Shown here: one piece after another, positions 14,870-64,000 of the stretch
Position numbering within the stretch: the first letter of the stretch is position 1
Layout: each line of letters opens with the position of its first letter
NCBI GenBank assembly: GCA_965230265.1
Contig: OZ245999.1
Coordinates: 1,755,158-1,819,157 of the forward strand
DNA from: Wenzhouxiangellaceae bacterium
GTDB lineage: Bacteria > Pseudomonadota > Gammaproteobacteria > Xanthomonadales > Wenzhouxiangellaceae
Length of the DNA: 64,000 nt
Direction: 5' to 3'
Notes under the pieces: model-generated
The model's database searches: none
What the model saw: the letters and a program-made list of their open reading frames with translations, nothing else
What the model was told of the DNA's origin: nothing
Program-made: the position numbers and the translations under genes

Positions 14870-15658
14870 TTATTCTGCTGGTTTGCGGAATAAAAAAGTA
14901 AAGCGGTCGGTATTACCTGACACCGTTTTACGGCCGACCTCATAACGCAGCTCATCATCCAGGCGTGAGTGCAAAGTGGTGTAATCCACAAACTCAAAGC
15001 CAGCCTCCTGGATTTCCTTAATGGCCAACACCGGATCAACACGACGACGGTTCTCAGAGTTATCCGCTTCCATATGCCGACGGGTATGATCGACCACACC
15101 ATAGATACCACCTGGCTTTAAAGCAGCAAATACCGCCGCATTCATACTGGCGCGGCCTGCGGCATCAAAGTTATGCACATTGCGGAATGTCAACGCTGCA
15201 TCCAAGCCAGTTACGCCCAAAGAAAAAGCACCAATGGTCGCCAGCCGGCCGTCTTCGCTACGGCCTATCTGTGCATCAATGCTTAACAGCTCAACTTGCT
15301 CGAAACCAGGTTCATTCAGCAGTTCAGAAGCTTCCAAACGCCCGGTACCCAAACCGACATACAATTTGCCTGTATCGCGCAAGGCAGGGGCGAGTAACTT
15401 GGTGTACCAGCCTGCACCTGGAATCAACTCCAGCACACGCATGTTTTCATCAATACCAAAAAAATCCAGTGTCTGCTCCGGCAGGCGATTGGCATCGCGC
15501 TCTATCTCTGCCTCCGTGCGGATGTCGGACTGCATAGCAGCTTCAATATTTTGCAAAAATGGACGCTTTTCCTCTTCTGCTACTGGCTGCGCGGTCACTG
15601 CCGTAGCCAACAATGTCAGCGCTAAAAATAAACATAGTGTCAATAAACGGTATCGCAT
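14870..15658 (-). CDS. Signal-peptide-bearing class-I SAM methyltransferase-like protein (paralogue B)
   Basis: Paralogue of 8918..9802. I re-assigned the start to ATG 15658 (MRYRLLTLCLFLA… signal peptide) with an AGGGA RBS. Confidence 0.6.
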   Translation of the reverse strand: MRYRLLTLCLFLALTLLATAVTAQPVAEEEKRPFLQNIEAAMQSDIRTEAEIERDANRLPEQTLDFFGIDENMRVLELIPGAGWYTKLLAPALRDTGKLYVGLGTGRLEASELLNEPGFEQVELLSIDAQIGRSEDGRLATIGAFSLGVTGLDAALTFRNVHNFDAAGRASMNAAVFAALKPGGIYGVVDHTRRHMEADNSENRRRVDPVLAIKEIQEAGFEFVDYTTLHSRLDDELRYEVGRKTVSGNTDRFTFLFRKPAE

Positions 15659-15768
15659 GGAATTTTCCCTGTGTTTTACGTTAACAAAAACTTCTGGCAT
15701 TCTAGCGGCTTGGGGCGTAGACAACCACCTGGGGCGAATGAAACCAACACCACCAAACGGGAGCTTAT

Positions 15769-16198
15769 CGTGAATCACAACATTGCCATCGAAAACCTTG
15801 CGCCCATTCGTTTTATTGCCCGTTGGATGTTAGGCATCATCTTTGGCATGGCAGGCTTCTGGAAAGTGTTTACCTTGGGTAGTGCCAATCATGCCAATCA
15901 ATTTTTCGTGCAGGGCTTTGCTGAGCACTGGATTCCAGAATGGTTATTGTTGATGCTCGGTCACATTATCCCGTACTGGGAACTGGCTGGCGGCATATTG
16001 CTGTTGATCGGTTTTAAAGTACGCTGGGTATTGATAAGTTTTGGCCTGTTATTGTTGATAACCACATACGGCCATGCGCTGCAACAACCATTGTTTGATA
16101 TTGATGGGCATACCTTTACTCGTCTGATATTGATTTTTATAGTGTTGGCCATTGCCGATGAACACGATTGGCTAAGTGTTGATAAGCCCACCCGGTAA
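15769..16198 (+). CDS. DoxX-family membrane protein
   Basis: GTG start with a GGAG RBS. It shows the DoxX-like pattern of 4 TM helices ('…GxxKxxxG…WxExxGGxxLLxG…'). Confidence 0.5.
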
Positions 16199-17454: not shown

Positions 17455-17755
17455 TACCGACCAGACAAATGTACTTACTGATTCCTAAACACAGTTCTCT
17501 TGCCCTCACAACAATTTAGTAACATAACGAATGTTATAAATCCTGATACTTTCATCAACACTGGACTAAATACGTCAAGATTCTAATTATTAATAAACAG
17601 CCTCAAGTTATTTTGTTTAAACCTTGTTGAAAAACTCGGCAATCATAAAGTTTCAACCAGCAAGCAGGCATTTATTATCATCGACTTCCTCATTAAAATC
17701 TGCTATTACTAGCTTCCGGCAGATGCAAAGGTGAGGCAATCTGGGCAAATAAAGT

Positions 17756-18364
17756 ATGTCTGACACATTGAATGCCGCAGGTCAGCAAGACCTTACAAAG
17801 CTACTAAAAGACTGGAACCACGGTGACGCCTCAGCAGGGGATGTCCTATTCACAGAAATATATCAAGCCTTAAAAGTCATCGCTTCGAACCGGTTACGAG
17901 ATGTCAACGCATCAGTACAAACCACAGAGTTGGTACACGAAGGGTTTTTAGTACTCAGCCAGAAAGCCAGCATCCAGTGGCAAGACAGAAAACATTTTTT
18001 TGCGATCGCGGCCAACGTTATCCGCAGACTATTGGTCGATCGCGCACGAGCCAGTCATGCAGCAAAAAGAGGAGGTGCCAATACTCGGTATATTCCTCTG
18101 GATGATATTCGGCTCCCAGCATGCGATCAACAGATCGATTGGATTGAATTCGACAAAGTATTTCAAGAACTAGAGTCTCTGGACAAAACATTAACCCGCG
18201 TTATGGAGTTACGTTTAATCATGGGGCTAACTGTTCGGGAAACAGCCGATATTCTATTGGTTAGCACAGCAACCATCTCTCGAAAATGGAATTTCGGCCT
18301 GGTGTGGTTGCAAGACCGTATGACAACACCGCCGTTCCCTAAAAGAAACAATATCCAGCATTAG
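17756..18364 (+). CDS. ECF sigma factor of the STK-associated type (Sigma70_ECF, ECF43-like)
   Basis: About 200 aa with sigma region 2/4 organisation. It ends 2 nt before the kinase ATG (TAGtcATG). Confidence 0.75.
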   Translation: MSDTLNAAGQQDLTKLLKDWNHGDASAGDVLFTEIYQALKVIASNRLRDVNASVQTTELVHEGFLVLSQKASIQWQDRKHFFAIAANVIRRLLVDRARASHAAKRGGANTRYIPLDDIRLPACDQQIDWIEFDKVFQELESLDKTLTRVMELRLIMGLTVRETADILLVSTATISRKWNFGLVWLQDRMTTPPFPKRNNIQH

Positions 18365-18366
18365 TC

Positions 18367-21126
18367 ATGACAGAAGAGCATCAACAGCATCCAACCCTGA
18401 GCAATACTCAGTTCCAACAAGCACAACTATTGTTCACACAGGCGAACCAGCTTCCCCATCACCAACGTAACCATTGGCTTGAACAGCAAACAGCTGATCC
18501 TGTAGTCATTGAAAAAGTGCGTCAATTGCTGGACATTTCCAATCAACCCCAACAACACAGTACTCATAAGCCGATATCGGCTATCGATATGCTGGAACTG
18601 GCTTTGATCGAATCAGAATTGGGCAAATACCAGCTGACCAAAAGCCTGGGTGAAGGCGGTATGGGCAGAGTCTATTTAGCCCGCAGAAATGACCAGGCGT
18701 TTGATAAAGACGTTGTCATCAAATTAATGAAGGGCTTCCATAAAAAAGACTCTACCCTTCAGCGCTTTCATTTTGAACGACAAGTACTGGCCAAAATGGA
18801 ACACTCCAATATTGCCAGGCTGCTCGATGGTGGTGAATGCCAGGATGGCACCCCATTTTATGTCATGGAATATGTGGATGGCAGCAACCTTATTGAATAT
18901 TCCCGTCAGCATCAGCTAAATCTTAATCAGCGTCTGGGATTGTTCCAGAAAATCTGTGCTGCTGTTCATTACGCTCATCAGAATCTGATTATTCATCGTG
19001 ATTTAAAGCCCAGCAATATTCTGATAAATCAGGAAGGCGAGCCAAAACTGCTGGATTTTGGCATTGCTAAACGACTCAGTGACGACAGCGCCGCACTGAC
19101 CCAAACCGCCATGCATCCAATGACACCGGCATACTCCAGCCCCGAACAAATACTTGGCAAACATTTAACCACTGCCAGTGATGTTTATTCACTGGGTATG
19201 ATTCTGTTTGAAATCCTTGCTGGACAAAGCCCTTACGATGAGTACAACACTGATCCACTGCGCTTAAAAGTAGCCATCTGTGAGCATGAGCCTGAAGCAC
19301 CATCAAAGCTTAATAGCAGAAGCAAACTTCGCTGGTCTCGCGACCTGGACAATATCGTATTAAAAACACTGCGCAAAGACCCCACCAGGCGTTATCGTTC
19401 TGTGCTGCAATTATCGGATGATATACAGCGCTACCGTGATGGACACCCGGTCAGCGCCAGCCGCAATACCTGGTTATACCGTGGTACTAAATTGCTATTT
19501 CGCCATCGTTGGGCCGCGGCTGGCATATTGCTTGCGGTAGTGTTATTAGCTGCACAACAAATAAGAGTCCTGCAACAGCGCGACCAGGCACAGCTAAATG
19601 CTCAACGAGCAGAGCAAAATCGTGACTTCCTAATTAACATGTTCGACACGCTCGACCCCAATGTTTCACAACAGATTGATATCTCTGCTAAGGCAGTTTT
19701 GGATCATGGTGCCCGTCAATTAGATAATAGTTTGCTTGACCAACCTGAGCTGCGGGCAGAACTAATGACAACCCTGGCCAGTCTTTACCAACAACATGGT
19801 TTATTTCAAGAGGCTGCTACACTGGCCGAAAATGCCATCAACATAAAACAAAGTCTATATCTTGACCAAAGCCCAGAATTAGCAGAAACTCTTAATACCT
19901 TAGCCAATACATATATTCATCAAGGGCTAAATAATAAAGCTTTATCCATCGCCCAAAAATCTCTAAATATTCTTAAACCCCATCAACAGCAATATCTCGA
20001 AGATTATGTATTTGCACTTAATATACTTAGCTTGGCGCACTTGAACAGTGGCCAATTAGAAACATCCAGACAAGTCAGTGAACGAAGTGTCGCTATTGCA
20101 AGAACATTACAAGACAAGAATCCTGAACTGCTCGTAGAAACACTTGAGATATTCGGATTAGCAGACTTTTATCTGGATAACTATAAAGACGCAGAACAAA
20201 CATTCCTGGAGTCTTTAACCATATGCAATAACTACTTAGAGAAAATGCATATCATTCGTGCATCAATTAATAATAACCTGGGATCAGTACTTGCAGAACA
20301 AGGATTGTATGAAAAAGCTGAAGACCATCATCGCCAGGCGCTTGCCATCATCACAAAGACACTGGGTGAAGAGCACCCTGATGTAGCATTTATTCAGAAT
20401 ACGCTTGGCTTATTATTACAGAATACCGGTCGTTTTGAAGAAGCCGAAGCTGCATTTAAGAACAGTTTACAATTAATGGAACAGACCATAGGAACCGAAC
20501 ATACCAAATTCATCACAACGCTCGGAAATTTGGCCCTGCTCTATCGAGAAACCAATAGGCTTGAACAGGCACTGGAATTAGCATACCAAGCACTGGAAAT
20601 TCAACAAAAAATTGCACCCGATAATCTAGATCAGATTGCGATCAGGCAATATGTGGTCGCGCTGACACTATCAGCCTTGCAGCGATTTGAACTTGCTGAG
20701 CAAATGTACTTAACAGTCATAGCTATATGGATTAACACACGTGGTAAAAACAGTAATGATTTAGCCACGGCACGCTCCAGCCTTGCCACCATGCTTGCGC
20801 GTCAAGAGAAATACCCTCAAGCAGAAATGCAAATGCGTTCGGCATTGGTTATTTATCAGCAAAAGTTAGCACCGGAACATTGGCATATCGCGGTAGTAAA
20901 CTATAGTTTAGGCAATATAGTTATGCAGCAGGGTCGATTTGGAGAAGCTGAATCACTGCTAGTGCCCGCTTGTGATCGATTGTTCGAAGCAAAGTCAATC
21001 CAGTCCAGATACACTAGAAATTGTTATAAATTTATCATCGAATTATACCGAAAAACTGATCGCTTAGCGGAAGCTGAGCCGTATCAAAAACAATTGGATA
21101 ACACTGAGTCTGGTCAGCTCGGCTAA
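18367..21126 (+). CDS. Serine/threonine protein kinase with transmembrane segment and C-terminal TPR repeats
   Basis: Hanks kinase motifs 'GEGGMGRVY', 'VIK', 'HRDLKPSNIL' and 'DFGIAK…APE'. A single TM helix 'AAAGILLAVVLLAA' is followed by about 500 aa of TPR repeats. Confidence 0.9.
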   Translation: MTEEHQQHPTLSNTQFQQAQLLFTQANQLPHHQRNHWLEQQTADPVVIEKVRQLLDISNQPQQHSTHKPISAIDMLELALIESELGKYQLTKSLGEGGMGRVYLARRNDQAFDKDVVIKLMKGFHKKDSTLQRFHFERQVLAKMEHSNIARLLDGGECQDGTPFYVMEYVDGSNLIEYSRQHQLNLNQRLGLFQKICAAVHYAHQNLIIHRDLKPSNILINQEGEPKLLDFGIAKRLSDDSAALTQTAMHPMTPAYSSPEQILGKHLTTASDVYSLGMILFEILAGQSPYDEYNTDPLRLKVAICEHEPEAPSKLNSRSKLRWSRDLDNIVLKTLRKDPTRRYRSVLQLSDDIQRYRDGHPVSASRNTWLYRGTKLLFRHRWAAAGILLAVVLLAAQQIRVLQQRDQAQLNAQRAEQNRDFLINMFDTLDPNVSQQIDISAKAVLDHGARQLDNSLLDQPELRAELMTTLASLYQQHGLFQEAATLAENAINIKQSLYLDQSPELAETLNTLANTYIHQGLNNKALSIAQKSLNILKPHQQQYLEDYVFALNILSLAHLNSGQLETSRQVSERSVAIARTLQDKNPELLVETLEIFGLADFYLDNYKDAEQTFLESLTICNNYLEKMHIIRASINNNLGSVLAEQGLYEKAEDHHRQALAIITKTLGEEHPDVAFIQNTLGLLLQNTGRFEEAEAAFKNSLQLMEQTIGTEHTKFITTLGNLALLYRETNRLEQALELAYQALEIQQKIAPDNLDQIAIRQYVVALTLSALQRFELAEQMYLTVIAIWINTRGKNSNDLATARSSLATMLARQEKYPQAEMQMRSALVIYQQKLAPEHWHIAVVNYSLGNIVMQQGRFGEAESLLVPACDRLFEAKSIQSRYTRNCYKFIIELYRKTDRLAEAEPYQKQLDNTESGQLG

Positions 21127-22563
21127 TCAAGTCAGAGGTGTTGTTCGTCTCGCCTGATGCAACAACGCTACCAGCTCATCAATGTGCCTTGTTTCGGTTA
21201 AGTAACTGGTCACACACACCCGTATAACCGGCCGCCCTGCAATTTGAGTGATAGAAATCCAGGCACGACCTGTATTCACCACAGCATCAACAATGGCTGC
21301 CTGATGTGCCGCAAGTTGTTCGCGATTCAAGCCGTCTGCGAGAGCATCTTCAAAACAGACAATCGCTAAAGAAGCTTCGGTCACCAAACGCCAATCGCGT
21401 GTCTGTAGCTGTTCCGCCAGATAACCGGCCATCGCTACCTGATGTTCGATGGTTTCGGCATAGCCATGACGACCAACACTGGCCATGGTCATAAACAGCT
21501 TCAAACCAATCAGACGACGGGAAAACTGCAAGCTAAGCCGGTAGTTATCCATGCCTACCTCGCTGCTTTCCGGTACGTAGGCCGTTTCCAGATGAAAAGT
21601 ATCAGCCAGCCAGCGGCCCTCGCGTGCGATCAGTACACCAGCAGCCATTGGCACCGATAACAGTTTATGCGGATCAAATGTGATGGTATCAGCATGCTCG
21701 ATACCGGCCAGCTTACCTTTGAGCTTGTCAGATAAAATAACTGCCCCGCCCCAGGCCGCATCCACATGCAAATGTAACTGCTCGCGTTGACAAACCTCTG
21801 CAATGGCAGACATCGGATCAATAATGCCTGCATTGGTGGTACCAGCAGTCGCCACCACCATAAACGGTAAATTTCCTTTGGCTCGGTCAGCTTCAATCAC
21901 CTTCTGCAAATGGTCCACGCGCAGCCGGTAACCATCATCGGTAGCAATAGTGCGCACAGCGTCGCGCCCCAAGCCACAGGTATGAGCAATTTTTTCAAAA
22001 GAGTGGTGGAATTCGTCAGAACAGTAAAATACCGGTTGTCCGGACAATGCTCTTAATCCCTGCCGGGTAAATTCAGGGAACTGCCGCGTCAACGCCAGCA
22101 ATACGCCTGTAGAGTTAGCCTCAGAGCCACCGGTAGTGAAGCTGCCATAAGCCTGCTCCACCGGCAAGCCGAAACGCCCAGCGAAATACTTGATCAAATG
22201 GCGCTCCATCTCCACACCAAAAGGATTGTGATGGTAAGCACCAACCTGCGGGTTTAATGCTGCTGCCAGCAGATCAGCCAATACACCGGCAAAGCTTGGC
22301 GCGGGGTTAAAGAGGCCATAATAATTTGGATGAGCAACTTTCATTCCACCATCACGAAGCGATTGATAGGCGCTTTCGACCACTTCACCCAGGTCTTTTT
22401 CTGATTCAAAATCAATGCTTTGTAATCCTTTTCTCAGTTCAGTAGCTGTAAGCACGGGCGTCACTGATGAGTTTTGCAACTGCTGGTAATAATCATCGAT
22501 AAGCAAAGCGGTTTGTTGCAACAGCTGCAGGCGGTGCGAAGAATCAGGTAGTAATCGGTGCAT
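21127..22563 (-). CDS. PLP-dependent group-II amino-acid decarboxylase (AAT fold)
   Basis: The lysine motif 'TFDPHKLLSVPMAAG' (S-x-H-K-type PLP lysine) and its ~480 aa length fit. It is convergent with the kinase, and the two stop codons abut. Confidence 0.8.
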   Translation of the reverse strand: MHRLLPDSSHRLQLLQQTALLIDDYYQQLQNSSVTPVLTATELRKGLQSIDFESEKDLGEVVESAYQSLRDGGMKVAHPNYYGLFNPAPSFAGVLADLLAAALNPQVGAYHHNPFGVEMERHLIKYFAGRFGLPVEQAYGSFTTGGSEANSTGVLLALTRQFPEFTRQGLRALSGQPVFYCSDEFHHSFEKIAHTCGLGRDAVRTIATDDGYRLRVDHLQKVIEADRAKGNLPFMVVATAGTTNAGIIDPMSAIAEVCQREQLHLHVDAAWGGAVILSDKLKGKLAGIEHADTITFDPHKLLSVPMAAGVLIAREGRWLADTFHLETAYVPESSEVGMDNYRLSLQFSRRLIGLKLFMTMASVGRHGYAETIEHQVAMAGYLAEQLQTRDWRLVTEASLAIVCFEDALADGLNREQLAAHQAAIVDAVVNTGRAWISITQIAGRPVIRVCVTSYLTETRHIDELVALLHQARRTTPLT

Positions 22564-24771: not shown

Positions 24772-26013
24772 TTACGGGCTGCTACAAGTCCAACTTGAAG
24801 TGTCCCCCGACTCAAAACCGTCTGCAAAAAAGTTCTCTCCAATGCGTGTGTTAATCACGGTATCATTATTAGGGCCTGCGGTAATGTATCTCGTATCAAA
24901 ACTTTTACTGTTGGTCCTGTGTACAACACACCCATCAACGGGCCCACCAAACCCTTGTGCTGGATACTCAGGGTCAATACTTACTAGCCCACCAACAAAG
25001 GGGTCTTCAACAATGAAATAATCCCCCCACAAGACATTGGTTTTTAACGAGTTATCGTTTTCATCAACAATACCTACCAAAGCACCACTTTGGAAATTAA
25101 AAAACATACCGTTATTATCGATAGTTCCCAAATTGCCAGTGGTGAATAAGCCAGGGTTATCTATAGGAATATTCGCAGTCCGTGCATCGCCATCGGCATT
25201 ATAAGTGAAGCGCACCTGCATACCTGATGCGGTATCAATCACAATACCGCCAGACTCCCTGACAAAAGTAAACCCAGCAGGCGGAGGTAAATTGACTATA
25301 TCGGTATCGGTTCGGCTGGGCGGGTTATTTGTAGTGCTAAAAGTACTTACCCGCACCATGCCATTATCCAACTGATACAAACTGGCCGCATCACCATGGT
25401 GATTCATTGCCAGTTGGTCGCGTACCGCACCATCAAACGGGCCACTGATCGTTCTTCCAGGACCACCTGTAATGGTTTCATAAATACTCCAGTTCAACCC
25501 ACCATTGATAGAAAGAAAAATCAGCAGTGAGTCATTGGTATCATTATGTGCACTGACAAAAATACCCTGTTCAGAGGTGGCGCAATCAGCGCTATCAAAA
25601 TTATCGGTTTGCGTAAATGGAATGGAAAGCGTTGACCAGCTGGAACCATTAAAGCGGGCATACTCAACATTAAAATTATCAATATAAGGCGCTACCACCA
25701 CATTGCCTTCGGTGCATAAATCACCCAGAGAAAACAATGTTGCAGAGTTATCCAGAGCGGTTGTCATTAAGCCTGTGCCATCATACGGTGGGGGCATCAT
25801 TAGAGCATCGAGCCGATTATTTGCTCCATCATTCCATAAAACAATACCGGCAAGATGAGGGTCTGGAATATCTTCCAACACCCCCAGCTTCGCTTCTAAT
25901 GGGAGCTCATCAAAAACGGTCACAGAAGTCCAGCCATTACCCGTACTGACCACACCAGAATTAACTGCAGATACGCATAACAACAAAACCAGCAAACAAA
26001 AAACTTTCATCAC
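24772..26013 (-). CDS. Secreted protein with BNR/Asp-box-like repeats and a conserved C-terminal GENFFxDGFE tail
   Basis: Strong AGGAGG RBS and signal peptide. It has Asp-box-like 'SINGGLNW' and a C-terminus '…GENFFADGFESGDTSSWTCSSP'. Confidence 0.55.
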   Translation of the reverse strand: MMKVFCLLVLLLCVSAVNSGVVSTGNGWTSVTVFDELPLEAKLGVLEDIPDPHLAGIVLWNDGANNRLDALMMPPPYDGTGLMTTALDNSATLFSLGDLCTEGNVVVAPYIDNFNVEYARFNGSSWSTLSIPFTQTDNFDSADCATSEQGIFVSAHNDTNDSLLIFLSINGGLNWSIYETITGGPGRTISGPFDGAVRDQLAMNHHGDAASLYQLDNGMVRVSTFSTTNNPPSRTDTDIVNLPPPAGFTFVRESGGIVIDTASGMQVRFTYNADGDARTANIPIDNPGLFTTGNLGTIDNNGMFFNFQSGALVGIVDENDNSLKTNVLWGDYFIVEDPFVGGLVSIDPEYPAQGFGGPVDGCVVHRTNSKSFDTRYITAGPNNDTVINTRIGENFFADGFESGDTSSWTCSSP

Positions 26014-26292: not shown

Positions 26293-27780
26293 TTAAATAA
26301 TAGAGTCATCCTCAACTTGCTCGGCTTCGATCCACTCAAATTCAACATCAGGCTGTACTTCATCTTCATCGGTGCTGAACTCAAAATGCAGCCCGTTGAT
26401 AAAGCCATCTTCCATCAGCACCTCAAAGTCATTGCTTAAAGCCTCACCCAGCTCCCCAGAGAAATCCTTTAATAAACCCAGGCTTTCCAAGTCGTCCAGA
26501 TCCATCTCGCTTAAAGCTTCTAAGCCTTTTATCTGAAAGCCACCACTTAAATCCAGGCCTTCAAGCGCTTTGAACATTTTATGCCCTTTCAGCATACTCA
26601 GACTTTTAAAAGGGTGTGAGCTTTCCGGCACTTCGAAACTGACTTCAATGTCATCGCGGTCACGCAAAATTTCAAGCGTTACCGTTTCACTGGTGTCGTA
26701 GGAACGTAAGATACGAAAAGCATGGTGTGGGTCATTTGGCTTACGACCATTAATTCGCATCAACACGTCGCCACCACGTATATCAGCCGGAAAAAAATCA
26801 TCGGGCACGCTGATGACTAACAACCCTTCACTGGTACCGAAATACCGTCCCAGATCAGGATTTAAATTGACCAGCTCCAACCCACCAACAAAACTGCCGC
26901 CAAGAGCATTAAAAATCACATTGGGCGCAGTTGGTGCCAGAGGTGCATTCTCTGGTAGAGGTGCCAATGGTGCAATCGGCGCGAAACTTTGCGGTGAGCG
27001 CCGTTCTGCCACCAGCACCGCATCGTCAATCACGCCATCACGCTGATACTCCAGGTTGACTTCATCACCTGGTTCCAGTTCTGACATGACTTCCAATACC
27101 TTACCGGCCGGACTGTCCAATTGAGTATCATCCAGGCGTACATCATTAATAGCCAATAAAATATCTTTGGATTGCAAACCGGCTTGATCAGCCGGGCCAC
27201 CAGGGCTAACCGAATTAATGCGCACACCTGTTTGTTCATCGTTGTCAGAAATACTCACACCTAACATAGCGCGGTTGGCATCTCTCAAAAAGCGAAAAGC
27301 GTAGCCACGTGCCGGCGTTAGGTCAGCTGATAGTTCAGCGACTTTATTGGCGGCAGCCCGCAACTCTTCACGCGCACTCTCGTAGTCAGCTCGTGCTCGC
27401 TCCCTATCCTGGCGGGCCCGTTCACGTTGTTGCTCTGCCTGTTCTCGCACTTGTGCTGCCTGTTCGCGAGCCTGTTGCTGATTTTGCACCTGCAGCATCC
27501 GTGCTTGATGAGCCTGCTCTCGATCTGTCATGACCTGCTGGCGCATCTGCTGCACTCTGACATGCTGCTCAGCACGAGCGTCTGCCAGTGCTTCATGGCG
27601 ACGTTTTAGTTGTTCACGAGCCTGTTGGTGTATTGCCGCCTGATGCGCTAACAGCGCTTGCCGCTGCTCAGCTTCATGTTGGACATGGCCACCATCTTGA
27701 GCCATTGATGGTGCTGAAAGCACCGTCGCCAAAGCGATGACCCATACACTGCTAATATTTAGAATCGTCCTGTCTGTCAT
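26293..27780 (-). CDS. Periplasmic coiled-coil protein with two PDZ domains and no protease domain
   Basis: Signal peptide, then a Q/R/E-rich heptad region. Two PDZ-like modules ('GVSISDNDEQTGVRINSVSPGGPADQAGLQSKDILLAIND' and 'GLLVISVPDDFFPADIRGGDVLMRINGRKP') are followed by an acidic C-terminus. Confidence 0.7.
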   Translation of the reverse strand: MTDRTILNISSVWVIALATVLSAPSMAQDGGHVQHEAEQRQALLAHQAAIHQQAREQLKRRHEALADARAEQHVRVQQMRQQVMTDREQAHQARMLQVQNQQQAREQAAQVREQAEQQRERARQDRERARADYESAREELRAAANKVAELSADLTPARGYAFRFLRDANRAMLGVSISDNDEQTGVRINSVSPGGPADQAGLQSKDILLAINDVRLDDTQLDSPAGKVLEVMSELEPGDEVNLEYQRDGVIDDAVLVAERRSPQSFAPIAPLAPLPENAPLAPTAPNVIFNALGGSFVGGLELVNLNPDLGRYFGTSEGLLVISVPDDFFPADIRGGDVLMRINGRKPNDPHHAFRILRSYDTSETVTLEILRDRDDIEVSFEVPESSHPFKSLSMLKGHKMFKALEGLDLSGGFQIKGLEALSEMDLDDLESLGLLKDFSGELGEALSNDFEVLMEDGFINGLHFEFSTDEDEVQPDVEFEWIEAEQVEDDSII

Positions 27781-27851
27781 GCGTTTGCCTCATTAAGATA
27801 ATCAATAAAATAAATGAGTGGTGATTAAAAAATTACCCGGTTGTTTTCCGG

Positions 27852-28568
27852 TTAAATCTGCTGGTTCAATAGGCTGGTTGTATCAGTATCCAGCTCGGTA
27901 TCTGAACTGGCTCTCAAACCGCCATAACGCCCGGCGTATTGATTGATCAGCAATTCACTCAGTAACGCGACCCGCTGTTGCCATAGGCCGGTACGTTCAT
28001 TGCTGATCAACTCATTGTCTCCAACCGAGTTACGGCTGACTTCCGAGGCTGCTATTTGTAAATCCACAAAAGCAATCATACGTTCTAGCTCATCGGTGGT
28101 GACTGCCTGATAGCCGGATAACACCTGCCCGTTGTCTTGTTGTCGCAATGCCCTAAGCGTGTTTTCCAAAAACTGTGAGCGCTCAACCAGTTGCCGTAGA
28201 TGCTCACCGCCCTGTTCCACTACCTGCACTGGTTGCGGGGAAATGCTTAACGGTGGCCGATAAAACACCACCGAAATCACCACCAGCAATGCTGCCGCAA
28301 TACCAATCCATTCATCAGCACGCAACCAGCCATGGCTGGCTTTACGTTTCCTGATGCTTGCAGGGCCAGCGAGGGTGTCATGATTCAACTGCTGTGATAT
28401 CTGCTCCCAACCGGCAGTTTCTGGAACCGCCTTCAGCGGCAGACCCTGTAAGGCCGTTTTCAATCCTCGCAGGGATTGCAGCTCATCATCACCAGAGAGG
28501 AAGTCCTGCAAAGCTTTGGTGGAATCAGCGGTCGATGGCTTGCTTGATGAATGGGTAGGCTTGTTCAT
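27852..28568 (-). CDS. Single-pass membrane anti-sigma factor (putative)
   Basis: Its start overlaps the sigma gene's stop (ATGA). About 90 aa of cytoplasmic N-terminal region is followed by one TM helix 'WIGIAAALLVVISVVFY' and a periplasmic C-domain. Confidence 0.5.
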   Translation of the reverse strand: MNKPTHSSSKPSTADSTKALQDFLSGDDELQSLRGLKTALQGLPLKAVPETAGWEQISQQLNHDTLAGPASIRKRKASHGWLRADEWIGIAAALLVVISVVFYRPPLSISPQPVQVVEQGGEHLRQLVERSQFLENTLRALRQQDNGQVLSGYQAVTTDELERMIAFVDLQIAASEVSRNSVGDNELISNERTGLWQQRVALLSELLINQYAGRYGGLRASSDTELDTDTTSLLNQQI

Positions 28569-29254
28569 GAATTTGCCTCAAACAGCACATTGCTGTTCAG
28601 ATGATGATTTTGGGGTGATGGGTGAGCTGACACTGATCCAGTATTTGATTCGGACTCAGATGGGGATGGACCCAATAGTTCTCTTAATTGAATATGCGCT
28701 CTTGCCAGACGAGATTTGGAAAAACTGACACTGCGGTCCATCAACTGTGCCACTTCGGCATGCGTATAACCTTCTACATGGTATAACCAAACCACCATCC
28801 GCGATAAACCCGGCAGTTTCTGCAAAGCCACCTCCAGTTCATTGCACTGGGTATATTGGGTGGCCTTTAACGAACTGGCTAACTCCGGGCTATGCAAGGC
28901 ATCTTCCATATCAACCTCTATACCTCGGCGCTTGTCAGAACGCATTCTCATTAAAGCAGTGGTACTGACAATTGTTCGCAGCCAACACCAAAATGGTGCA
29001 TCGCTACGGTATTGATACAAACATTTAAAGCATTTCACAAAACTGTCCTGCATCACATCCTGAGCATCCGCCTGGTGACACAACAGCCGCAGCGCCAGGT
29101 TATACACCTGCCTGGAATATCTTTGATACAACCACTGCATTGCTACCTGATCACCTGTTTGAGCCTGAAAAATCATATCCTGCTCTTGCTGTTGGTGGTT
29201 ATCTGTTGCTGTCGGTGGTTTTTTGGAAGCTTCTGAACCCAAGCACCCGCTCAC
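28565..29254 (-). CDS. ECF (sigma-24-like) RNA polymerase sigma factor
   Basis: Sigma region 2 ('…YxxLxxxALRLLxxxxDAQDVMQDSFVK…') and region 4 HTH ('…GYTHAEVAQLMDRSVSFSKSRLARA'). The start may instead be the internal MIFQAQ at 29176. Confidence 0.8.
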   Translation of the reverse strand: MSGCLGSEASKKPPTATDNHQQQEQDMIFQAQTGDQVAMQWLYQRYSRQVYNLALRLLCHQADAQDVMQDSFVKCFKCLYQYRSDAPFWCWLRTIVSTTALMRMRSDKRRGIEVDMEDALHSPELASSLKATQYTQCNELEVALQKLPGLSRMVVWLYHVEGYTHAEVAQLMDRSVSFSKSRLARAHIQLRELLGPSPSESESNTGSVSAHPSPQNHHLNSNVLFEANS

Positions 29255-50226: not shown

Positions 50227-51108
50227 ATGTCTAGATCCCAGCGGCTATGGGCTATTTCTGACATCCATATAGACAGCAGCAAGAACCATCAGTTGTTGCT
50301 CAGTCTTTGTGATGAGTCCTACCAGAACGACATGCTGGTTATTGCCGGTGATGCCACTGATAATCTCAGCAGATTAATGGGCTTTTTAAAAAATATGCAA
50401 CAGAAGTTCCACACGGTTGCTTTTGTTCCAGGCAACCATGAGCTATGGCTGCACAAACAAGATTTCCAAGACTCTATCGATAAGTTTGAGGCAATCCTGA
50501 ATGGCTGTCATTCCCTGGGGGTTGGCATTGAGCCGATACGCTTCGGACACAAACACGATGCTGTTTGGGTGGTGCCATTGTTTTCTTGGTATGAAGGACC
50601 AGAAGCTGGTGATACCAGCTTGTATGTGGAAAAAAAAGGCGTCAAAGATGAAACCAAAAACATGTGGCGAGATTATTTTTTGACACGCTGGCCTCAGAAT
50701 ATACAAAAATCGATAGTTGACTATTTTCTCGGCCTCAATACAAACAGTTTATCAATGGCATTCGATGCACCAGTGATCAGCTTTAGTCACTTTTTGCCAC
50801 GCACTGAATTGATTTTTCGACGGCCAGATCACCAACCAGCCGCCCATGTAAACACCACCGATCCGCACCCTGAGTTTAATTTCAGCCGTGTAGCAGGCAG
50901 CTGGCGACTGGATGCTCAAATACGCTCACTTGGCAGCAGGGTACATATTTATGGGCACCAACACCGTAATCGTACTCGCCAGATTGATGATGTCACTTAC
51001 CTGTCTCATTGCCTGGGCTACCCTGCCGAACGTGATTCCGGGCATATCATGAACAATGCCGAGCACCCAAGGTTGATCTGGCAAACTGGCAACGGTTTTA
51101 TGCTGTGA
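50227..51108 (+). CDS. Calcineurin-like metallophosphoesterase
   Basis: Has the 'AISDIHID', 'VIAGDATD' and 'VPGNHE' motif series. Confidence 0.7.
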   Translation: MSRSQRLWAISDIHIDSSKNHQLLLSLCDESYQNDMLVIAGDATDNLSRLMGFLKNMQQKFHTVAFVPGNHELWLHKQDFQDSIDKFEAILNGCHSLGVGIEPIRFGHKHDAVWVVPLFSWYEGPEAGDTSLYVEKKGVKDETKNMWRDYFLTRWPQNIQKSIVDYFLGLNTNSLSMAFDAPVISFSHFLPRTELIFRRPDHQPAAHVNTTDPHPEFNFSRVAGSWRLDAQIRSLGSRVHIYGHQHRNRTRQIDDVTYLSHCLGYPAERDSGHIMNNAEHPRLIWQTGNGFML

Positions 51109-61111: not shown

Positions 61112-64000
61112 TTACATATTCCTCCGATACTCCCCTCCAACCCCATAAAGCGCCCCACTAATCTGCCCTAAACTGGCAACCTTTACAGCTTCCATTAAGG
61201 CTTCAAACACATTACCCCGCTCCCGGGCAACTTTCTGCAATTCAGCCAATACCTGATCAGCTTTATCCGTGTGCCGTTTCTGGAAATTACGTACACCGGT
61301 AATCTGATCCTGTTTTTCTTCTTCGGTGGCTCGAATCAATTCGATTTCGGGCATTTCTTCCTGTTCATCCTTTGGTGGCAGGAAGGTGTTGACACCGATC
61401 AGCGGCAGACTGCCGTCGTGTTTTTTGCTTTCGTAATACAACGATTCATCCTGAATCTTGCCGCGCTGATACATGGTATCCATGGCCCCCAGCACACCAC
61501 CGCGTTCGCTGATACGCTCAAACTCTGCATAAACCGCCTCTTCCACCAGGTCGGTTAGCTCATCCACCACAAAGCTGCCCTGCCAGGGGTTTTCGTTAAA
61601 GTTGAGACCCAGTTCTCGGTTAATGATTAACTGAATCGCCACCGCCCGTCGAACACTTTCTTCTGTCGGCGTGGTAATGGCTTCGTCGTAGGCATTGGTG
61701 TGCAGGCTGTTGCAGTTATCGAAGATCGCGTACAGCGCCTGCAGGGTGGTACGGATATCATTGAACTGAATTTCCTGCGCATGCAGGCTGCGGCCCGAGG
61801 TCTGGATATGGTATTTCAGCATCTGGCTGCGTTGGTTGGCACCATAACGCTCACGCATCGCCCTGGCCCAGATACGGCGGGCCACACGGCCAATGACTGT
61901 GTATTCAGGGTCCATGCCGTTACTGAAAAAGAACGACAAATTCGGCGCAAACTCATCAATGTGCATGCCCCGTGCCAGGTAATACTCCACGATGGTAAAA
62001 CCATTGGACAGGGTAAAGGCCAGCTGGCTGATGGGGTTCGCACCGGCTTCAGCGATGTGATAGCCGGAAATGGATACCGAATAGAAATTCCGGACCTGGT
62101 GATCAACAAAATACTGCTGAATATCGCCCATCATCTTCAGGGCAAATTCGGTTGAGAAAATACAGGTATTCTGTGCCTGATCCTCTTTGAGGATATCAGC
62201 CTGCACAGTACCGCGTACCGTACTCAGGGTTTTTCCCTTAATCTGCTTATAGGTTTCAGCATCCAGCAACTGATCGCCATTGACCCCCAGCATACCCAAA
62301 CCCAAACCATCATTGTGTTCAGGCACTTCGCGACGATAGCTGGGCAAGTTATTGTTTAGTAAAGACTTAATCTTATCCTGAGCGACTTCCCATTGGCCCT
62401 GCTCTTTCAAATATTTTTCCACCTGCTGATCGATCGCGGTGTTCATAAACATGGCCAGCAGCATCGGTGCCGGGCCATTGATGGTCATCGATACCGAGGT
62501 GGTTGGCAGGCACAGGTCAAAACCAGAATACAGGCGCTTCATATCATCCAGACAGGAAATCGATACTCCGGAATTGCCCACCTTGCCATAAATATCGGGC
62601 CGCTCATGCGGGTCTTCCCCATACAGCGTAACCGAATCAAACGCGGTGGATAATCGCGCCGCCGGCTGGCCGGCAGATAAATAGTGGAAACGTTTATTGG
62701 TCCTCTCCGGCATGCCCTCACCGGCAAACATACGGGTTGGGTCTTCACCGGCACGGCGATAAGGGAACACGCCACCGGTATAGGGGTAGGCACCCGGCAG
62801 GTTTTCTTTTAATAAGAACTTCAGTAAATCGCCCCAGTCCCGGAATTTGGGCGGCGCGATTTTGGGGATTTTGTTACCCGAAAGGCTAACTTTGTAATTG
62901 TCGCCTTTGATTTCCTTACCACGCACGGTATAGCTGAACTGATCCGCCATTACACCTTCCCTGCGTGCTGGCCATCGCTGCAGTTCATCAATGGCATCAG
63001 ATGAAAGAGCTTTCAGCGCCTCGTTATAACGTTCTCGCAGCAACTGGATACTGCCATCAGCATGTTCTGTGCCCTTGTATAAGGTCAATGGCTCTGGCAG
63101 ATCACTGTCTTCCAGTGCCGCCAATGCTTCATAATAACTCTGTGCCAGACTGGCGTTTTCCGCCATCTGGTCGATGCCCTGATTGATTCTACGGCCCTGT
63201 TCGGCAATCTCCGCCAGGTAGCGAATACGCGCACCGGGAATCAGTGCCATGGCCTTGGGTTCTTTGATTTCCGTGTTCAGGTCAACCGACCATTTGCCCT
63301 TATCAAGCTTCAGTTTTTCACTAAGTAACCGGCATAAGTTACTGAACATCCATGTAATTCCCGGATCATTAAACTGACTAGCAATGGTTGCATACACCGG
63401 CACGTCATCATCATTCATTTGAAATGCCAGGCGGTTCCGCTTCCACTGCTTCTTGACGTCACGCTGGGCGTCCTCGGCCCCTTTCTTATCAAATTTGTTC
63501 AACACCACCAGCTCGGCATAATCGAGCATATCGATTTTTTCCAGCTGGCTGGCTGCACCATAATCACTGGTCATCACGTACATCGGAAAATCGACCAGAT
63601 CGACAATTTCCGAGTCGGACTGACCAATGCCTGCAGTTTCCACAATCACCAAATCAAAACCCAGCGATTTCAGAAACAAGGTGGCATCACCCAGCATTTC
63701 TGATGTGGCCAGATGCTGGCGACGAGTGGCCATGCTACGCATGTAAACACGCTGATTACGCAGGCTGTTCATGCGGATACGGTCACCCAGCAATGCGCCA
63801 CCGGTTTTGCGCCGGGTCGGATCGACCGCCAATACCGCGATGCGCATATTTTCAAAATGCTGCAGGAAACGGTTCAAAAGCTCATCGGTTACCGATGACT
63901 TACCGGCGCCGCCGGTACCGGTAATACCCACTACCGGGGTATTACCTGCTGCCAGCTGCCACTGCTTACGCAGACTGTTCAACCGATCTTCACTCATCTG
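61112..64000 (-). CDS. icmF: Fused isobutyryl-CoA mutase IcmF (MeaB-like GTPase plus B12-dependent mutase domain), 5'-truncated at window edge
   Basis: G-domain '[12 protein letters not shown]…DxxG…NKFD' is followed by methylmalonyl/isobutyryl-CoA-mutase catalytic-domain blocks. The N-terminal B12-binding domain expected for IcmF would lie beyond 64000. Confidence 0.85.

What the first reader, a model, noticed from the sequence alone, without database searches (positions are those of the whole stretch)
17455..21126. ECF sigma factor translationally coupled to a 919-aa membrane TPR Ser/Thr kinase
The sigma gene's stop and the kinase ATG are 2 nt apart (TAGtcATG), with a 300-nt AT-rich promoter region upstream. 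The kinase has a complete Hanks catalytic domain, one TM helix and about 500 aa of C-terminal TPR repeats. This matches the STK-associated ECF class (ECF43-like), where phosphorylation rather than an anti-sigma factor is thought to control sigma activity. That class is poorly characterised in Gammaproteobacteria. No anti-sigma gene is present.
Basis: partly seen in the sequence, partly recalled or inferred. Interest (0 to 1): 0.55.

Follow-up and report, generated by a model that had tools for sequence, protein, structure and literature searches.

The report
Kinase-switched ECF sigma factor operon
This is a two-gene operon in which a membrane sensor kinase most likely switches on its partner sigma factor by phosphorylating one threonine; it is real and intact, but it belongs to a class (ECF43) whose two best-studied examples already come from Gammaproteobacteria.

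Summary
A 202-aa ECF sigma gene (17756-18364) is followed after TAGtcATG by a 919-aa Hanks kinase gene (18367-21126), behind a 301-nt, 35.5% GC spacer.

The sigma passes the curated cut-offs of PF07638 and TIGR02999. It is 36% identical to Xanthomonas citri EcfK. In place of the canonical acidic DAED motif of region 2.2 it carries Q55-T56-T57-E58, and T57 aligns with EcfK phospho-Thr51.

The kinase has every catalytic residue, one transmembrane helix and about 514 aa of predicted periplasmic TPR repeats. It also shares an N-terminal helical extension with X. citri PknS (PDB 9EED). No anti-sigma gene is linked.

The claim that the class is poorly characterised in Gammaproteobacteria is wrong: EcfP/PknT (Vibrio) and EcfK/PknS (Xanthomonas) are the two main characterised cases.

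Local details: EcfK's second (linker) phosphosite maps to a proline here, so a single T57 switch is predicted. A conserved sigma-70-like extended -10 promoter suggests constitutive transcription.

Side result: the kinase's N-terminal module is a very large family with no Pfam or NCBIfam model, and it sat beside a PF07638 sigma gene in all 9 loci examined.

Verdict: new member of a known kind, low-to-moderate interest.

The parts
17455..17755 (+). AT-rich intergenic/promoter region upstream of the sigma gene
   Evidence: It is 35.5% GC against a window mean of 47.4%, in the lowest 1.6% of 301-nt windows. It holds no credible ORF.
17681..17709 (+). Sigma-70-like promoter candidate: -35 TCGACT, 17-nt spacer, extended -10 TGcTATTAC
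   Evidence: This is the only block conserved in the otherwise diverged upstream regions of the window, L003 and L004 (TCGAyT-N14-TGyTAwTAm). It is the single match in the window. Function is inferred, not shown. It fell below the threshold of the simple consensus scan.
17756..18364 (+). ECF43-type sigma factor gene (202 aa)
   Evidence: PF07638 scores 1.4e-37 and TIGR02999 scores 164.5 bits against a cut-off of 126. It is 36% identical to reconstructed EcfK, E 3e-20. The AF2 model shows sigma2 helices 25-104, a disordered linker 107-124 and sigma4 helices 129-188.
17918..17929 (+). Codons for Q55-T56-T57-E58, the region-2.2 motif that replaces DAED; T57 (17924-17926) is the predicted phospho-acceptor
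   Evidence: T57 is invariant in 18/18 homologues. It aligns with the Glu of the canonical ED-L-x-Q-E in ECF sigma structures 9isn_F and 6dxo. It aligns with EcfK T51 in the peptide AGLQATELVHEAWMR.
18080..18106 (+). Linker segment N109-D117 (NTRYIPLDD), equivalent to the EcfK T104-S110 phosphosite cluster
   Evidence: The best register places EcfK T106 on P114 (r = 0.85 against the published ECF43 residue frequencies). BLASTP gives Y112 and MAFFT gives D116; none is Ser or Thr. The segment lies in the low-confidence linker of the AF2 model.
18367..21126 (+). Hanks-type receptor Ser/Thr kinase gene (919 aa)
   Evidence: Supported. The best solved relatives are M. tuberculosis PknB (4e-47) and X. 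citri PknS 9EED (2e-44, covering query residues 10-358).
18394..18546 (+). N-terminal helical module of the kinase (about residues 10-60), shared with PknS and other sigma-linked kinases
   Evidence: It aligns to PknS residues 3-83 (E 1.5e-7 for the single sequence, 5.7e-12 for the profile). AF2 predicts three helices at 13-26, 31-41 and 45-59 with pLDDT about 90. No Pfam or NCBIfam model matches.
18622..19464 (+). Catalytic kinase domain (residues 86-366)
   Evidence: Based on the alignment to PknB 12-289. K119, E137, D212, N217, D230 and T245/T247 are present. K119, D212, D230 and T245 are conserved in the kinases of L004, L005 and L002.
19510..19572 (+). Single transmembrane helix (about residues 382-402)
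   Evidence: It is the only 19-residue window with Kyte-Doolittle hydropathy above 1.6. The flanks follow the positive-inside rule.
19582..21123 (+). C-terminal TPR array (residues 406-919), predicted periplasmic sensor domain
   Evidence: TPR_12 5.9e-57 in 5 stretches, TPR_10 and TPR_NPHP3. The topology is inferred from the single TM helix and a cytoplasmic kinase domain. It is 48-52% identical in L004 and L005, against 69-73% for the kinase domain.

Best explanation
The two genes form an ECF43-type signalling operon. The operon is probably transcribed from a housekeeping-type (sigma-70-like, extended -10) promoter, so both proteins are made constitutively. The sigma is intrinsically weak at binding core RNA polymerase, because the acidic DAED patch of region 2.2 is replaced by Q55-T56-T57-E58. 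The kinase is a single-pass membrane receptor. Its N-terminal helical module and catalytic domain lie in the cytoplasm, and about 514 aa of TPR repeats lie in the periplasm. An unknown envelope or periplasmic cue, sensed through the TPR array, activates the kinase by autophosphorylation of the T245/T247 activation loop. The kinase then phosphorylates sigma T57. This restores negative charge next to E58 and lets the sigma bind the beta-prime clamp and direct transcription of its regulon. The position equivalent to EcfK's second switch (T106) is a proline here, so this sigma is predicted to use a single switch, like Vibrio EcfP. Shown here: gene structure, family membership by sequence, motif substitutions, catalytic completeness, conserved gene pairing. 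Inferred: phosphorylation of T57, its effect on RNA polymerase binding, membrane topology, promoter use. Unknown: the signal and the regulon.
For: The sigma passes the curated cut-offs of PF07638 and TIGR02999. It is 36% identical to experimentally characterised EcfK, with an identical TELVHE segment around the phosphosite. T57 is invariant in 18/18 homologues, and Thr or Ser occupies that position in 8/8 further sigma genes next to related kinases. A profile alignment to solved canonical ECF sigmas places T57-E58 on their acidic E-D pair. A second, conventional ECF sigma in the same window (28565-29254) keeps DAQD and is followed by a single-pass membrane protein, which serves as an internal contrast. 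The kinase has all catalytic residues, and the four checked (K119, D212, D230, T245) are conserved in relatives. The sigma-then-kinase order on one strand is kept in L003, L004 and L005, including L005 where all neighbouring genes differ. It is also kept in Acidobacteriota and other phyla (L001, L002, L009-L012). The published mechanism for ECF43 comes from EcfP/PknT and EcfK/PknS (PMC8999054, PMC13147305).
Against: There is no experimental datum for this locus. Formal assignment with the ECF-group HMMs could not be run. E58 retains a negative charge, as in EcfK, where T51A alone was still functional, so T57 may not be strictly required. The linker alignment is ambiguous: P114, Y112 or D116 by three methods. 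No cognate Ser/Thr phosphatase lies in the 64-kb window. The signal and the regulon are unknown. The promoter assignment rests on conservation in only three related loci and fell below the threshold of the simple scan.
Confidence: 0.75

Rival explanations
1. The kinase both tethers and activates the sigma. The conserved N-terminal helical module of the kinase docks or holds the unphosphorylated sigma at the membrane, acting in an anti-sigma-like or scaffold role. Phosphorylation then releases an active sigma. This extends the best explanation rather than excluding it.
For: The module is conserved from this gammaproteobacterium to Xanthomonas PknS and to Acidobacteriota and Verrucomicrobiota kinases. 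All 9 kinases with the module whose context was examined have a PF07638 sigma gene immediately upstream: the window, L001, L002, L004, L005 and L009-L012. Its position mirrors a membrane anti-sigma factor: an N-terminal cytoplasmic helical domain, then a TM helix, then a periplasmic domain. PMC13147305 notes that the PknS extension 'may play a functional role'.
Confidence: 0.25
2. Phosphorylation only tunes the sigma. It has substantial basal activity because E58 and the linker acids D116/D117 already provide the charges needed for core binding, so control is mainly through transcription or stability.
For: E58 is retained, which is true of only about 16% of ECF43 members; EcfK is one of them, and EcfK T51A still complemented. 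MAFFT places EcfK T106 on D116, which would act as a built-in phosphomimic. D116/D117 are conserved in the clade.
Against: T57 is invariant even within the E58-bearing clade, which argues for selection on the phospho-acceptor. The better-supported register puts T106 on P114, not on an acid. The strict genetic linkage to an intact kinase is kept across phyla.
Confidence: 0.15
3. The two genes are co-transcribed but functionally unlinked. The kinase acts on other substrates, and the sigma is controlled by an unlinked or unrecognised anti-sigma factor.
For: Hanks kinases usually have several substrates. Anti-sigma factors are diverse and can escape Pfam. Two neighbouring ORFs have no Pfam hit (14870-15778 and 24772-26013).
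Against: The pair stays together when the neighbourhood changes (L005) and across phyla. The region-2.2 substitution with an invariant Thr is the signature of direct phospho-control. The two homologous pairs detailed in the held texts, plus a third from Hyphomonas neptunium mentioned in the review, work by direct phosphorylation.
Confidence: 0.05

Closest known systems
EcfK / PknS of Xanthomonas citri (ECF43; PDB 9EED; PMC13147305)
   Same: The ECF sigma gene sits next to a Hanks receptor kinase gene. The sigma is 36% identical to reconstructed EcfK (E 3e-20). The phosphosite context is Q-x-T-E-LVHE, retaining the Glu after the Thr. The kinase has the same architecture: an N-terminal helical extension of about 85 aa homologous to PknS 3-83, a catalytic domain, one TM helix and periplasmic TPRs.
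   Different: EcfK's second functional phosphosite, T106 in the linker, is not conserved; it maps to P114 in the best register. The TPR array is much longer: 5 TPR_12 stretches over about 514 aa, against three TPRs reported for the 833-aa PknS. The locus is not inside a type VI secretion cluster; its neighbours are a serine hydrolase (beta-lactamase family), DoxX, a MacB-type ABC transporter and a PLP decarboxylase. The regulon is unknown.
EcfP / PknT of Vibrio parahaemolyticus (ECF43; Iyer et al. 2020, as summarised in PMC8999054 and PMC8103513)
   Same: The host is a gammaproteobacterium. The sigma is intrinsically inactive and lacks DAED. A single Thr in region 2.2 is phosphorylated by the neighbouring kinase to allow core RNA polymerase binding. 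The single-switch logic predicted here matches EcfP.
   Different: EcfP has STTA with no acidic residue, whereas the window sigma has QTTE. EcfP responds to polymyxin; no signal can be inferred here.
Other kinase-linked ECF groups (ECF59, ECF61, ECF62, ECF217, ECF283; PMC7826278, PMC8999054)
   Same: They have a Hanks kinase gene in the conserved neighbourhood and usually no anti-sigma gene.
   Different: According to PMC8999054, those groups keep a DAED-like acidic motif and are mostly planctomycetal or actinobacterial. The window sigma lacks DAED and is clearly homologous to EcfK. Formal exclusion would need the group HMMs.
Canonical ECF sigma / membrane anti-sigma pairs (for example the probable pair at window 28565-29254 and 27852-28568)
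   Same: Both are a sigma2 + sigma4 ECF sigma co-transcribed with a single-pass membrane protein that links the envelope to transcription.
   Different: Control there is by sequestration and release, and the sigma keeps the acidic motif (DAQD). Here the partner is an enzyme and the sigma lacks the acidic patch.

Membership tests
ECF43 (Ser/Thr-kinase-associated ECF sigma factors) | ECF-type sigma with only sigma2 and sigma4 domains, matching the family's sequence models | tested here: met
   PF07638 scores 129.8 bits against a cut-off of 21.1. TIGR02999 scores 164.5 bits against a cut-off of 126.15. The AF2 model shows two helical domains joined by a disordered linker.
ECF43 (Ser/Thr-kinase-associated ECF sigma factors) | Hanks-type kinase gene in the immediate, conserved neighbourhood | tested here: met
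   The kinase gene starts 2 nt after the sigma stop codon. The pairing is kept in L003-L005, L001, L002 and L009-L012.
ECF43 (Ser/Thr-kinase-associated ECF sigma factors) | DAED motif of region 2.2 replaced by uncharged residues with a conserved Thr (consensus QTTA) | tested here: met
   The motif is Q55-T56-T57-E58. T57 is invariant and lies on the acidic position of canonical ECFs. The fourth position keeps an acid, as in EcfK (QATE) and in 15.8% of ECF43 members.
ECF43 (Ser/Thr-kinase-associated ECF sigma factors) | Homology to an experimentally characterised member | tested here: met
   BLASTP against EcfK reconstructed from published peptides (about 94% of the protein) gives 36% identity over 168 aa, E 3e-20.
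ECF43 (Ser/Thr-kinase-associated ECF sigma factors) | No co-encoded anti-sigma factor | tested here: met
   No anti-sigma Pfam domain occurs in the ten flanking ORFs between 10411 and 26013. The spacer holds no credible small ORF. An unrecognisable anti-sigma factor cannot be excluded.
ECF43 (Ser/Thr-kinase-associated ECF sigma factors) | Assignment by the ECF Hub group-specific HMMs | not testable with these tools
   The ECF group HMM library is not among the available libraries.
ECF43 (Ser/Thr-kinase-associated ECF sigma factors) | Direct phosphorylation of the region-2.2 Thr by the cognate kinase, needed for RNA polymerase binding | not testable with these tools
   This requires biochemistry. 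It is inferred only from homology to EcfK and EcfP.
ECF43, two-switch subtype (EcfK-like) | Ser/Thr at the linker position equivalent to EcfK T106 | tested here: not met
   The best register gives P114 (r = 0.85 with Table S6 of PMC13147305). The alternatives are Y112 and D116. No Ser or Thr is conserved in the linker of this clade.
Hanks-type (eukaryote-like) Ser/Thr protein kinases, active form | Gly-rich loop, VAIK Lys, alpha-C Glu, HRD Asp, catalytic Asn, DFG Asp, APE motif | tested here: met
   GEGGMG 95-100, K119, E137, D212, N217, D230 and SPE 258-260 are present. Pkinase scores 7.1e-48. It is not a pseudokinase by sequence.
PknS-like receptor kinases | N-terminal helical extension + kinase domain + one TM helix + periplasmic TPRs | tested here: met
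   The extension aligns to PknS 3-83. The TM helix is at about 382-402. The TPRs span 406-919. Periplasmic location is inferred from topology.
Class I anti-sigma domain (considered for the kinase N-terminal module) | Sequence or fold similarity to solved anti-sigma domains | tested here: not met

The most novel reading that the evidence does not exclude
The roughly 55-aa N-terminal three-helix module of this kinase (consensus RWxxvKeLFxxAlELPxxeRaAFLdxaCggDxeLRrEVESLL) may be a dedicated sigma-recognition or holding domain that defines ECF43-coupled kinases in many phyla. It would give each kinase specificity for its own sigma, and possibly sequester the sigma at the membrane until it is phosphorylated. 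The module has no Pfam or NCBIfam model. A profile finds 68,848 cluster representatives at E <= 1e-3. It occurs almost only in front of Hanks kinase domains, sometimes in 2-10 tandem copies. In all 9 loci examined it lies next to a PF07638 sigma gene.
Probability: 0.3. Interest if true: 0.55.

Novelty: new member of a known kind. Interest (0 to 1): 0.25.

Why it matters
The locus itself adds one more ECF43 sigma/kinase pair, in an unnamed sulfur-oxidiser-like gammaproteobacterium whose RhlE is about 75% identical to those of Ca. Thiodiazotropha and Thiohalobacter. The mechanism of the class is already established, so the locus changes little. It does carry a natural combination that could help separate the one-switch and two-switch models proposed in 2026: QTTE, with the Glu retained as in EcfK, but a proline at EcfK's second phosphosite. 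The wider point, which is not specific to this window, is that the N-terminal extension noted in PknS as conserved among Xanthomonadaceae homologues is in fact a very large, cross-phylum module without a Pfam or NCBIfam model. It sat beside the sigma gene in all nine loci examined. That makes the question of how these kinases recognise their sigma directly testable.

Tried and rejected
(1) Finding the source genome. The genome-contig scan with the sigma returned only two distant loci. The exact-protein look-up found no contig. The cluster look-up gave no names. The taxon was therefore only bracketed through RhlE homologues.

(3) Solved homologues of the sigma. The single-sequence PDB search gave only SigK at E 0.49. 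A profile was needed to align it to canonical ECFs.

(4) The Iyer et al. 2020 primary paper is not held. EcfP and PknT sequences, the ECF43 promoter motif and the authors' survey of kinase domains could not be consulted. EcfK was reconstructed from mass-spectrometry peptides in the PMC13147305 supplement instead.

(5) Linker phosphosite mapping. BLASTP, MAFFT and a frequency-pattern register disagree. I adopted the pattern register (r = 0.85) but report the ambiguity.

(6) The simple sigma-70 scan reported no promoter in the spacer. The candidate at 17681-17709 comes from cross-locus conservation. My first pattern had the spacer off by one and found nothing.

(7) No PP2C or other obviously linked Ser/Thr phosphatase, FHA protein or second kinase was found among the ORFs of at least 150 aa that were scanned; four ORFs between 57187 and 60871 were not scanned. 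A Metallophos protein at 50227-51108 is 29 kb away and unlinked.

(8) No attempt to predict the regulon succeeded. Neighbour genes are syntenic in L003 and L004 but entirely different in L005, so synteny gives no target.


Full report
OBSERVATION. The ORF table and the sequence confirm the finding exactly.
- A 202-aa ORF lies at 17756-18364 and a 919-aa ORF at 18367-21126, both on the + strand and joined by TAGtcATG.
- Both ORFs begin at the first possible start codon after an upstream stop.
- The 301-nt spacer upstream (17455-17755) is 35.5% GC against 47.4% for the window, which is among the 1.6% most AT-rich 301-nt stretches.
- The spacer contains no credible small ORF.

THE SIGMA FACTOR.
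- Pfam gives Sigma70_ECF (PF07638) at 1.4e-37. NCBIfam gives TIGR02999 'Sig-70_X6' at 164.5 bits, above its curated cut-off of 126.
- The database holds the identical protein on a 3.6-Mb contig, three close relatives (92, 68 and 63% identity), and then a drop to 45% or less.
- In an alignment of 18 homologues, T57 is one of only 11 invariant columns. The local motif is Q55-T56-T57-E58-L-V-H-E.
- A profile of this alignment, searched against solved structures, aligns T57-E58 with the E-D pair of the canonical acidic region-2.2 motif (xEDLxQE) in ECF sigmas 9isn_F and 6dxo.
- The DAED patch that normally contacts the beta-prime clamp is therefore replaced here. A Gln takes the place of the first Asp, a Thr takes the place of the Glu, and one acid is retained.
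- A conventional ECF sigma in the same window (28565-29254) keeps DAQD, which is a useful internal contrast.
- An AF2 model shows sigma2 helices up to residue 104, a disordered linker at 107-124 and sigma4 helices at 129-188. T57 lies at the start of the helix 56-69.

THE KINASE.
- Pkinase scores 7.1e-48 over residues 88-343. The best solved relatives are M. tuberculosis PknB (4e-47) and 9EED (2e-44).
- All catalytic elements are present: GEGGMG 95-100, K119, E137, HRDLKPSN 210-217, DFG 230-232, SPE 258-260, and the activation-loop T245-Q-T247 aligned with the PknB phospho-threonines.
- K119, D212, D230 and T245 are conserved in the related kinases of L004, L005 and L002. By sequence it is not a pseudokinase.
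- One hydrophobic segment (about 382-402) is the only TM candidate. The basic residues lie on its N-terminal side, which puts the kinase domain in the cytoplasm and the 514-aa TPR array (TPR_12 5.9e-57 in five stretches, plus TPR_10) in the periplasm. This topology is inferred, not shown.

CONTEXT AND CONSERVATION.
- Flanking genes encode a serine hydrolase of the beta-lactamase family, DoxX proteins, a MacB-type ABC transporter, a lipocalin/AttH protein and a convergent PLP-dependent decarboxylase. None has an anti-sigma domain.
- The sigma-then-kinase arrangement is kept in the three close relatives. L003 and L004 share the window's synteny. In L005 every neighbouring gene differs, so the pair moves as a unit.
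- The arrangement recurs in a Blastocatellia genome (L001) and a high-GC uncultured bacterium (L002).
- Spacing between the two genes varies: -4, 4, 5, 13, 14, 23, 23, 38 and 184 nt. Operon organisation is conserved, but the 2-nt junction is not.
- The host is a gammaproteobacterium. Its RhlE is about 71-85% identical to those of Candidatus Thiodiazotropha, Thiohalobacter and Chromatiales MAGs.

WHAT IS KNOWN.
- ECF43 is the kinase-associated ECF group. In V. parahaemolyticus, EcfP lacks DAED (it has STTA) and is inactive until PknT phosphorylates the second Thr, which restores the charge needed for core binding (PMC8999054, PMC8103513).
- In X. citri, PknS phosphorylates EcfK at T51 (motif QATE) and in the sigma2-sigma4 linker (T104, T106, S108, S110). 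T51 and T106 act as alternative switches (PMC13147305).
- The Thr is conserved in 88% of ECF43 members. An acid follows it in 15.8%. Of the 1032 ECF43 sequences analysed, 343 are from Xanthomonadales.
The functional assignment is right.

COMPARISON WITH EcfK AND PknS.
- I reconstructed about 94% of EcfK from the tryptic peptides in the paper's supplement.
- BLASTP gives 36% identity over 168 residues, E 3e-20. EcfK Q49-A-T51-E-LVHE aligns with window Q55-T-T57-E-LVHE.
- 9EED is PknS(1-364). The window kinase aligns with it from residue 10, which includes the 83-aa N-terminal extension of PknS (E 1.5e-7 for residues 1-123 alone).
- For the linker sites, three methods give three registers. The register that reproduces the published residue frequencies (Table S6) puts T106 on P114 (r = 0.85, next best 0.35).
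- In no register is there a Ser or Thr at the T106 position. The only linker Thr (T110) is not conserved even in the 92%-identical relative.
- I therefore predict a single T57 switch, as in EcfP, but with the EcfK-like Glu retained.

PROMOTER.
- The only conserved block in the diverged upstream regions of the window, L003 and L004 is TCGAyT-N14-TGyTAwTAm. In the window this is 17681-17709: a -35-like hexamer, a 17-nt spacer and an extended -10.
- This looks like a housekeeping-type promoter rather than an autoregulated ECF promoter. That would fit a sigma that is harmless until phosphorylated.
- It is an inference from three loci. The generic scan did not flag the site.

THE N-TERMINAL MODULE (side result).
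- Of the 120 best kinase hits, about 100 have 80-99 residues before the Gly-rich loop, with a shared consensus (RWxxvKeLFxxAlELPxxeRaAFLdxaCggDxeLRrEVESLL).
- No Pfam or NCBIfam model matches it.
- A profile finds only PknS among solved chains (5.7e-12). Among 1.84 billion cluster representatives it finds 68,848 at E <= 1e-3 and 21,785 at E <= 1e-10.
- Of the top hits that are at least 350 aa long, 42 of 43 carry the kinase motifs HRDxKxxN and DFG. Some have 2-10 tandem copies of the module.
- Four kinases with the module, chosen only for lying on long contigs, all have a PF07638 sigma gene immediately upstream. The same is true of the window, L001, L002, L004 and L005.
- AF2 predicts a confident three-helix unit at 13-26, 31-41 and 45-59.
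- Its position (cytoplasmic helical domain, then TM helix, then periplasmic domain) resembles a membrane anti-sigma factor. However, neither profile nor fold searches link it to anti-sigma domains.
- A sigma-docking role is a reasonable but untested hypothesis.

VERDICT. The finding is real and correctly interpreted as an ECF43-type, kinase-activated sigma system. It is a new member of a known kind, in a phylum where the kind is already best understood. Its modest points of interest are three: the QTTE/Pro114 combination, the unusually long TPR sensor, and the cross-phylum N-terminal kinase module without a Pfam or NCBIfam model. Phosphorylation, signal, regulon, topology and promoter use all remain inferences.

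Noticed in passing
window 18394-18546 (kinase residues about 10-60); also P0274, P0275, P0283, P0286: The kinase's N-terminal three-helix module has no Pfam or NCBIfam model. A profile nevertheless finds 68,848 cluster representatives (E <= 1e-3), almost always in front of a Hanks kinase domain. Some proteins carry 2-10 tandem copies; P0274 has ten copies and then a kinase domain.
   Followed up: partly
window 26293-29254, minus strand: There is a second, conventional ECF sigma at 28565-29254 (Sigma70_r2 + r4_2, region 2.2 DAQD). It overlaps by 4 nt a 238-aa ORF with one TM helix and no Pfam hit (27852-28568), which is a probable anti-sigma factor. A 495-aa ORF with weak PDZ/DegP-like matches follows (26293-27780). 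This looks like a sigma/anti-sigma/protease operon 7 kb from the kinase.
   Followed up: partly
window 21126-21127: The kinase stop codon ends at 21126, and the convergent PLP-dependent decarboxylase ORF (21127-22563, minus strand) ends at 21127. There are no intergenic bases and no terminator-like hairpin between the two convergent genes.
   Followed up: no
L004 11525-13156; L005 11547-13811: In relatives the gene after the kinase differs. In L004 an S8 peptidase is inserted between the kinase and the decarboxylase. In L005 a 754-aa ORF without Pfam hits follows on the same strand, flanked by M16 peptidases. These are possible regulon members but were not examined.
   Followed up: no
L012 4001-6695: In one related locus the kinase (400 aa) and the TPR region (504-aa ORF, overlapping by about 20 nt) are called as separate genes. 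This is either a split architecture or a frameshift or assembly error.
   Followed up: no
window 14870-15778 and 24772-26013, minus strand: Two sizeable ORFs near the operon (302 aa and 413 aa, both with signal-peptide-like N-termini) have no Pfam match. The first is conserved in the same position in L003 and L004.
   Followed up: no
window 61112-63997, minus strand: A fused isobutyryl-CoA mutase/GTPase (IcmF-like, 1481 bits) runs to the right-hand end of the window. It is unrelated to the finding.
   Followed up: no
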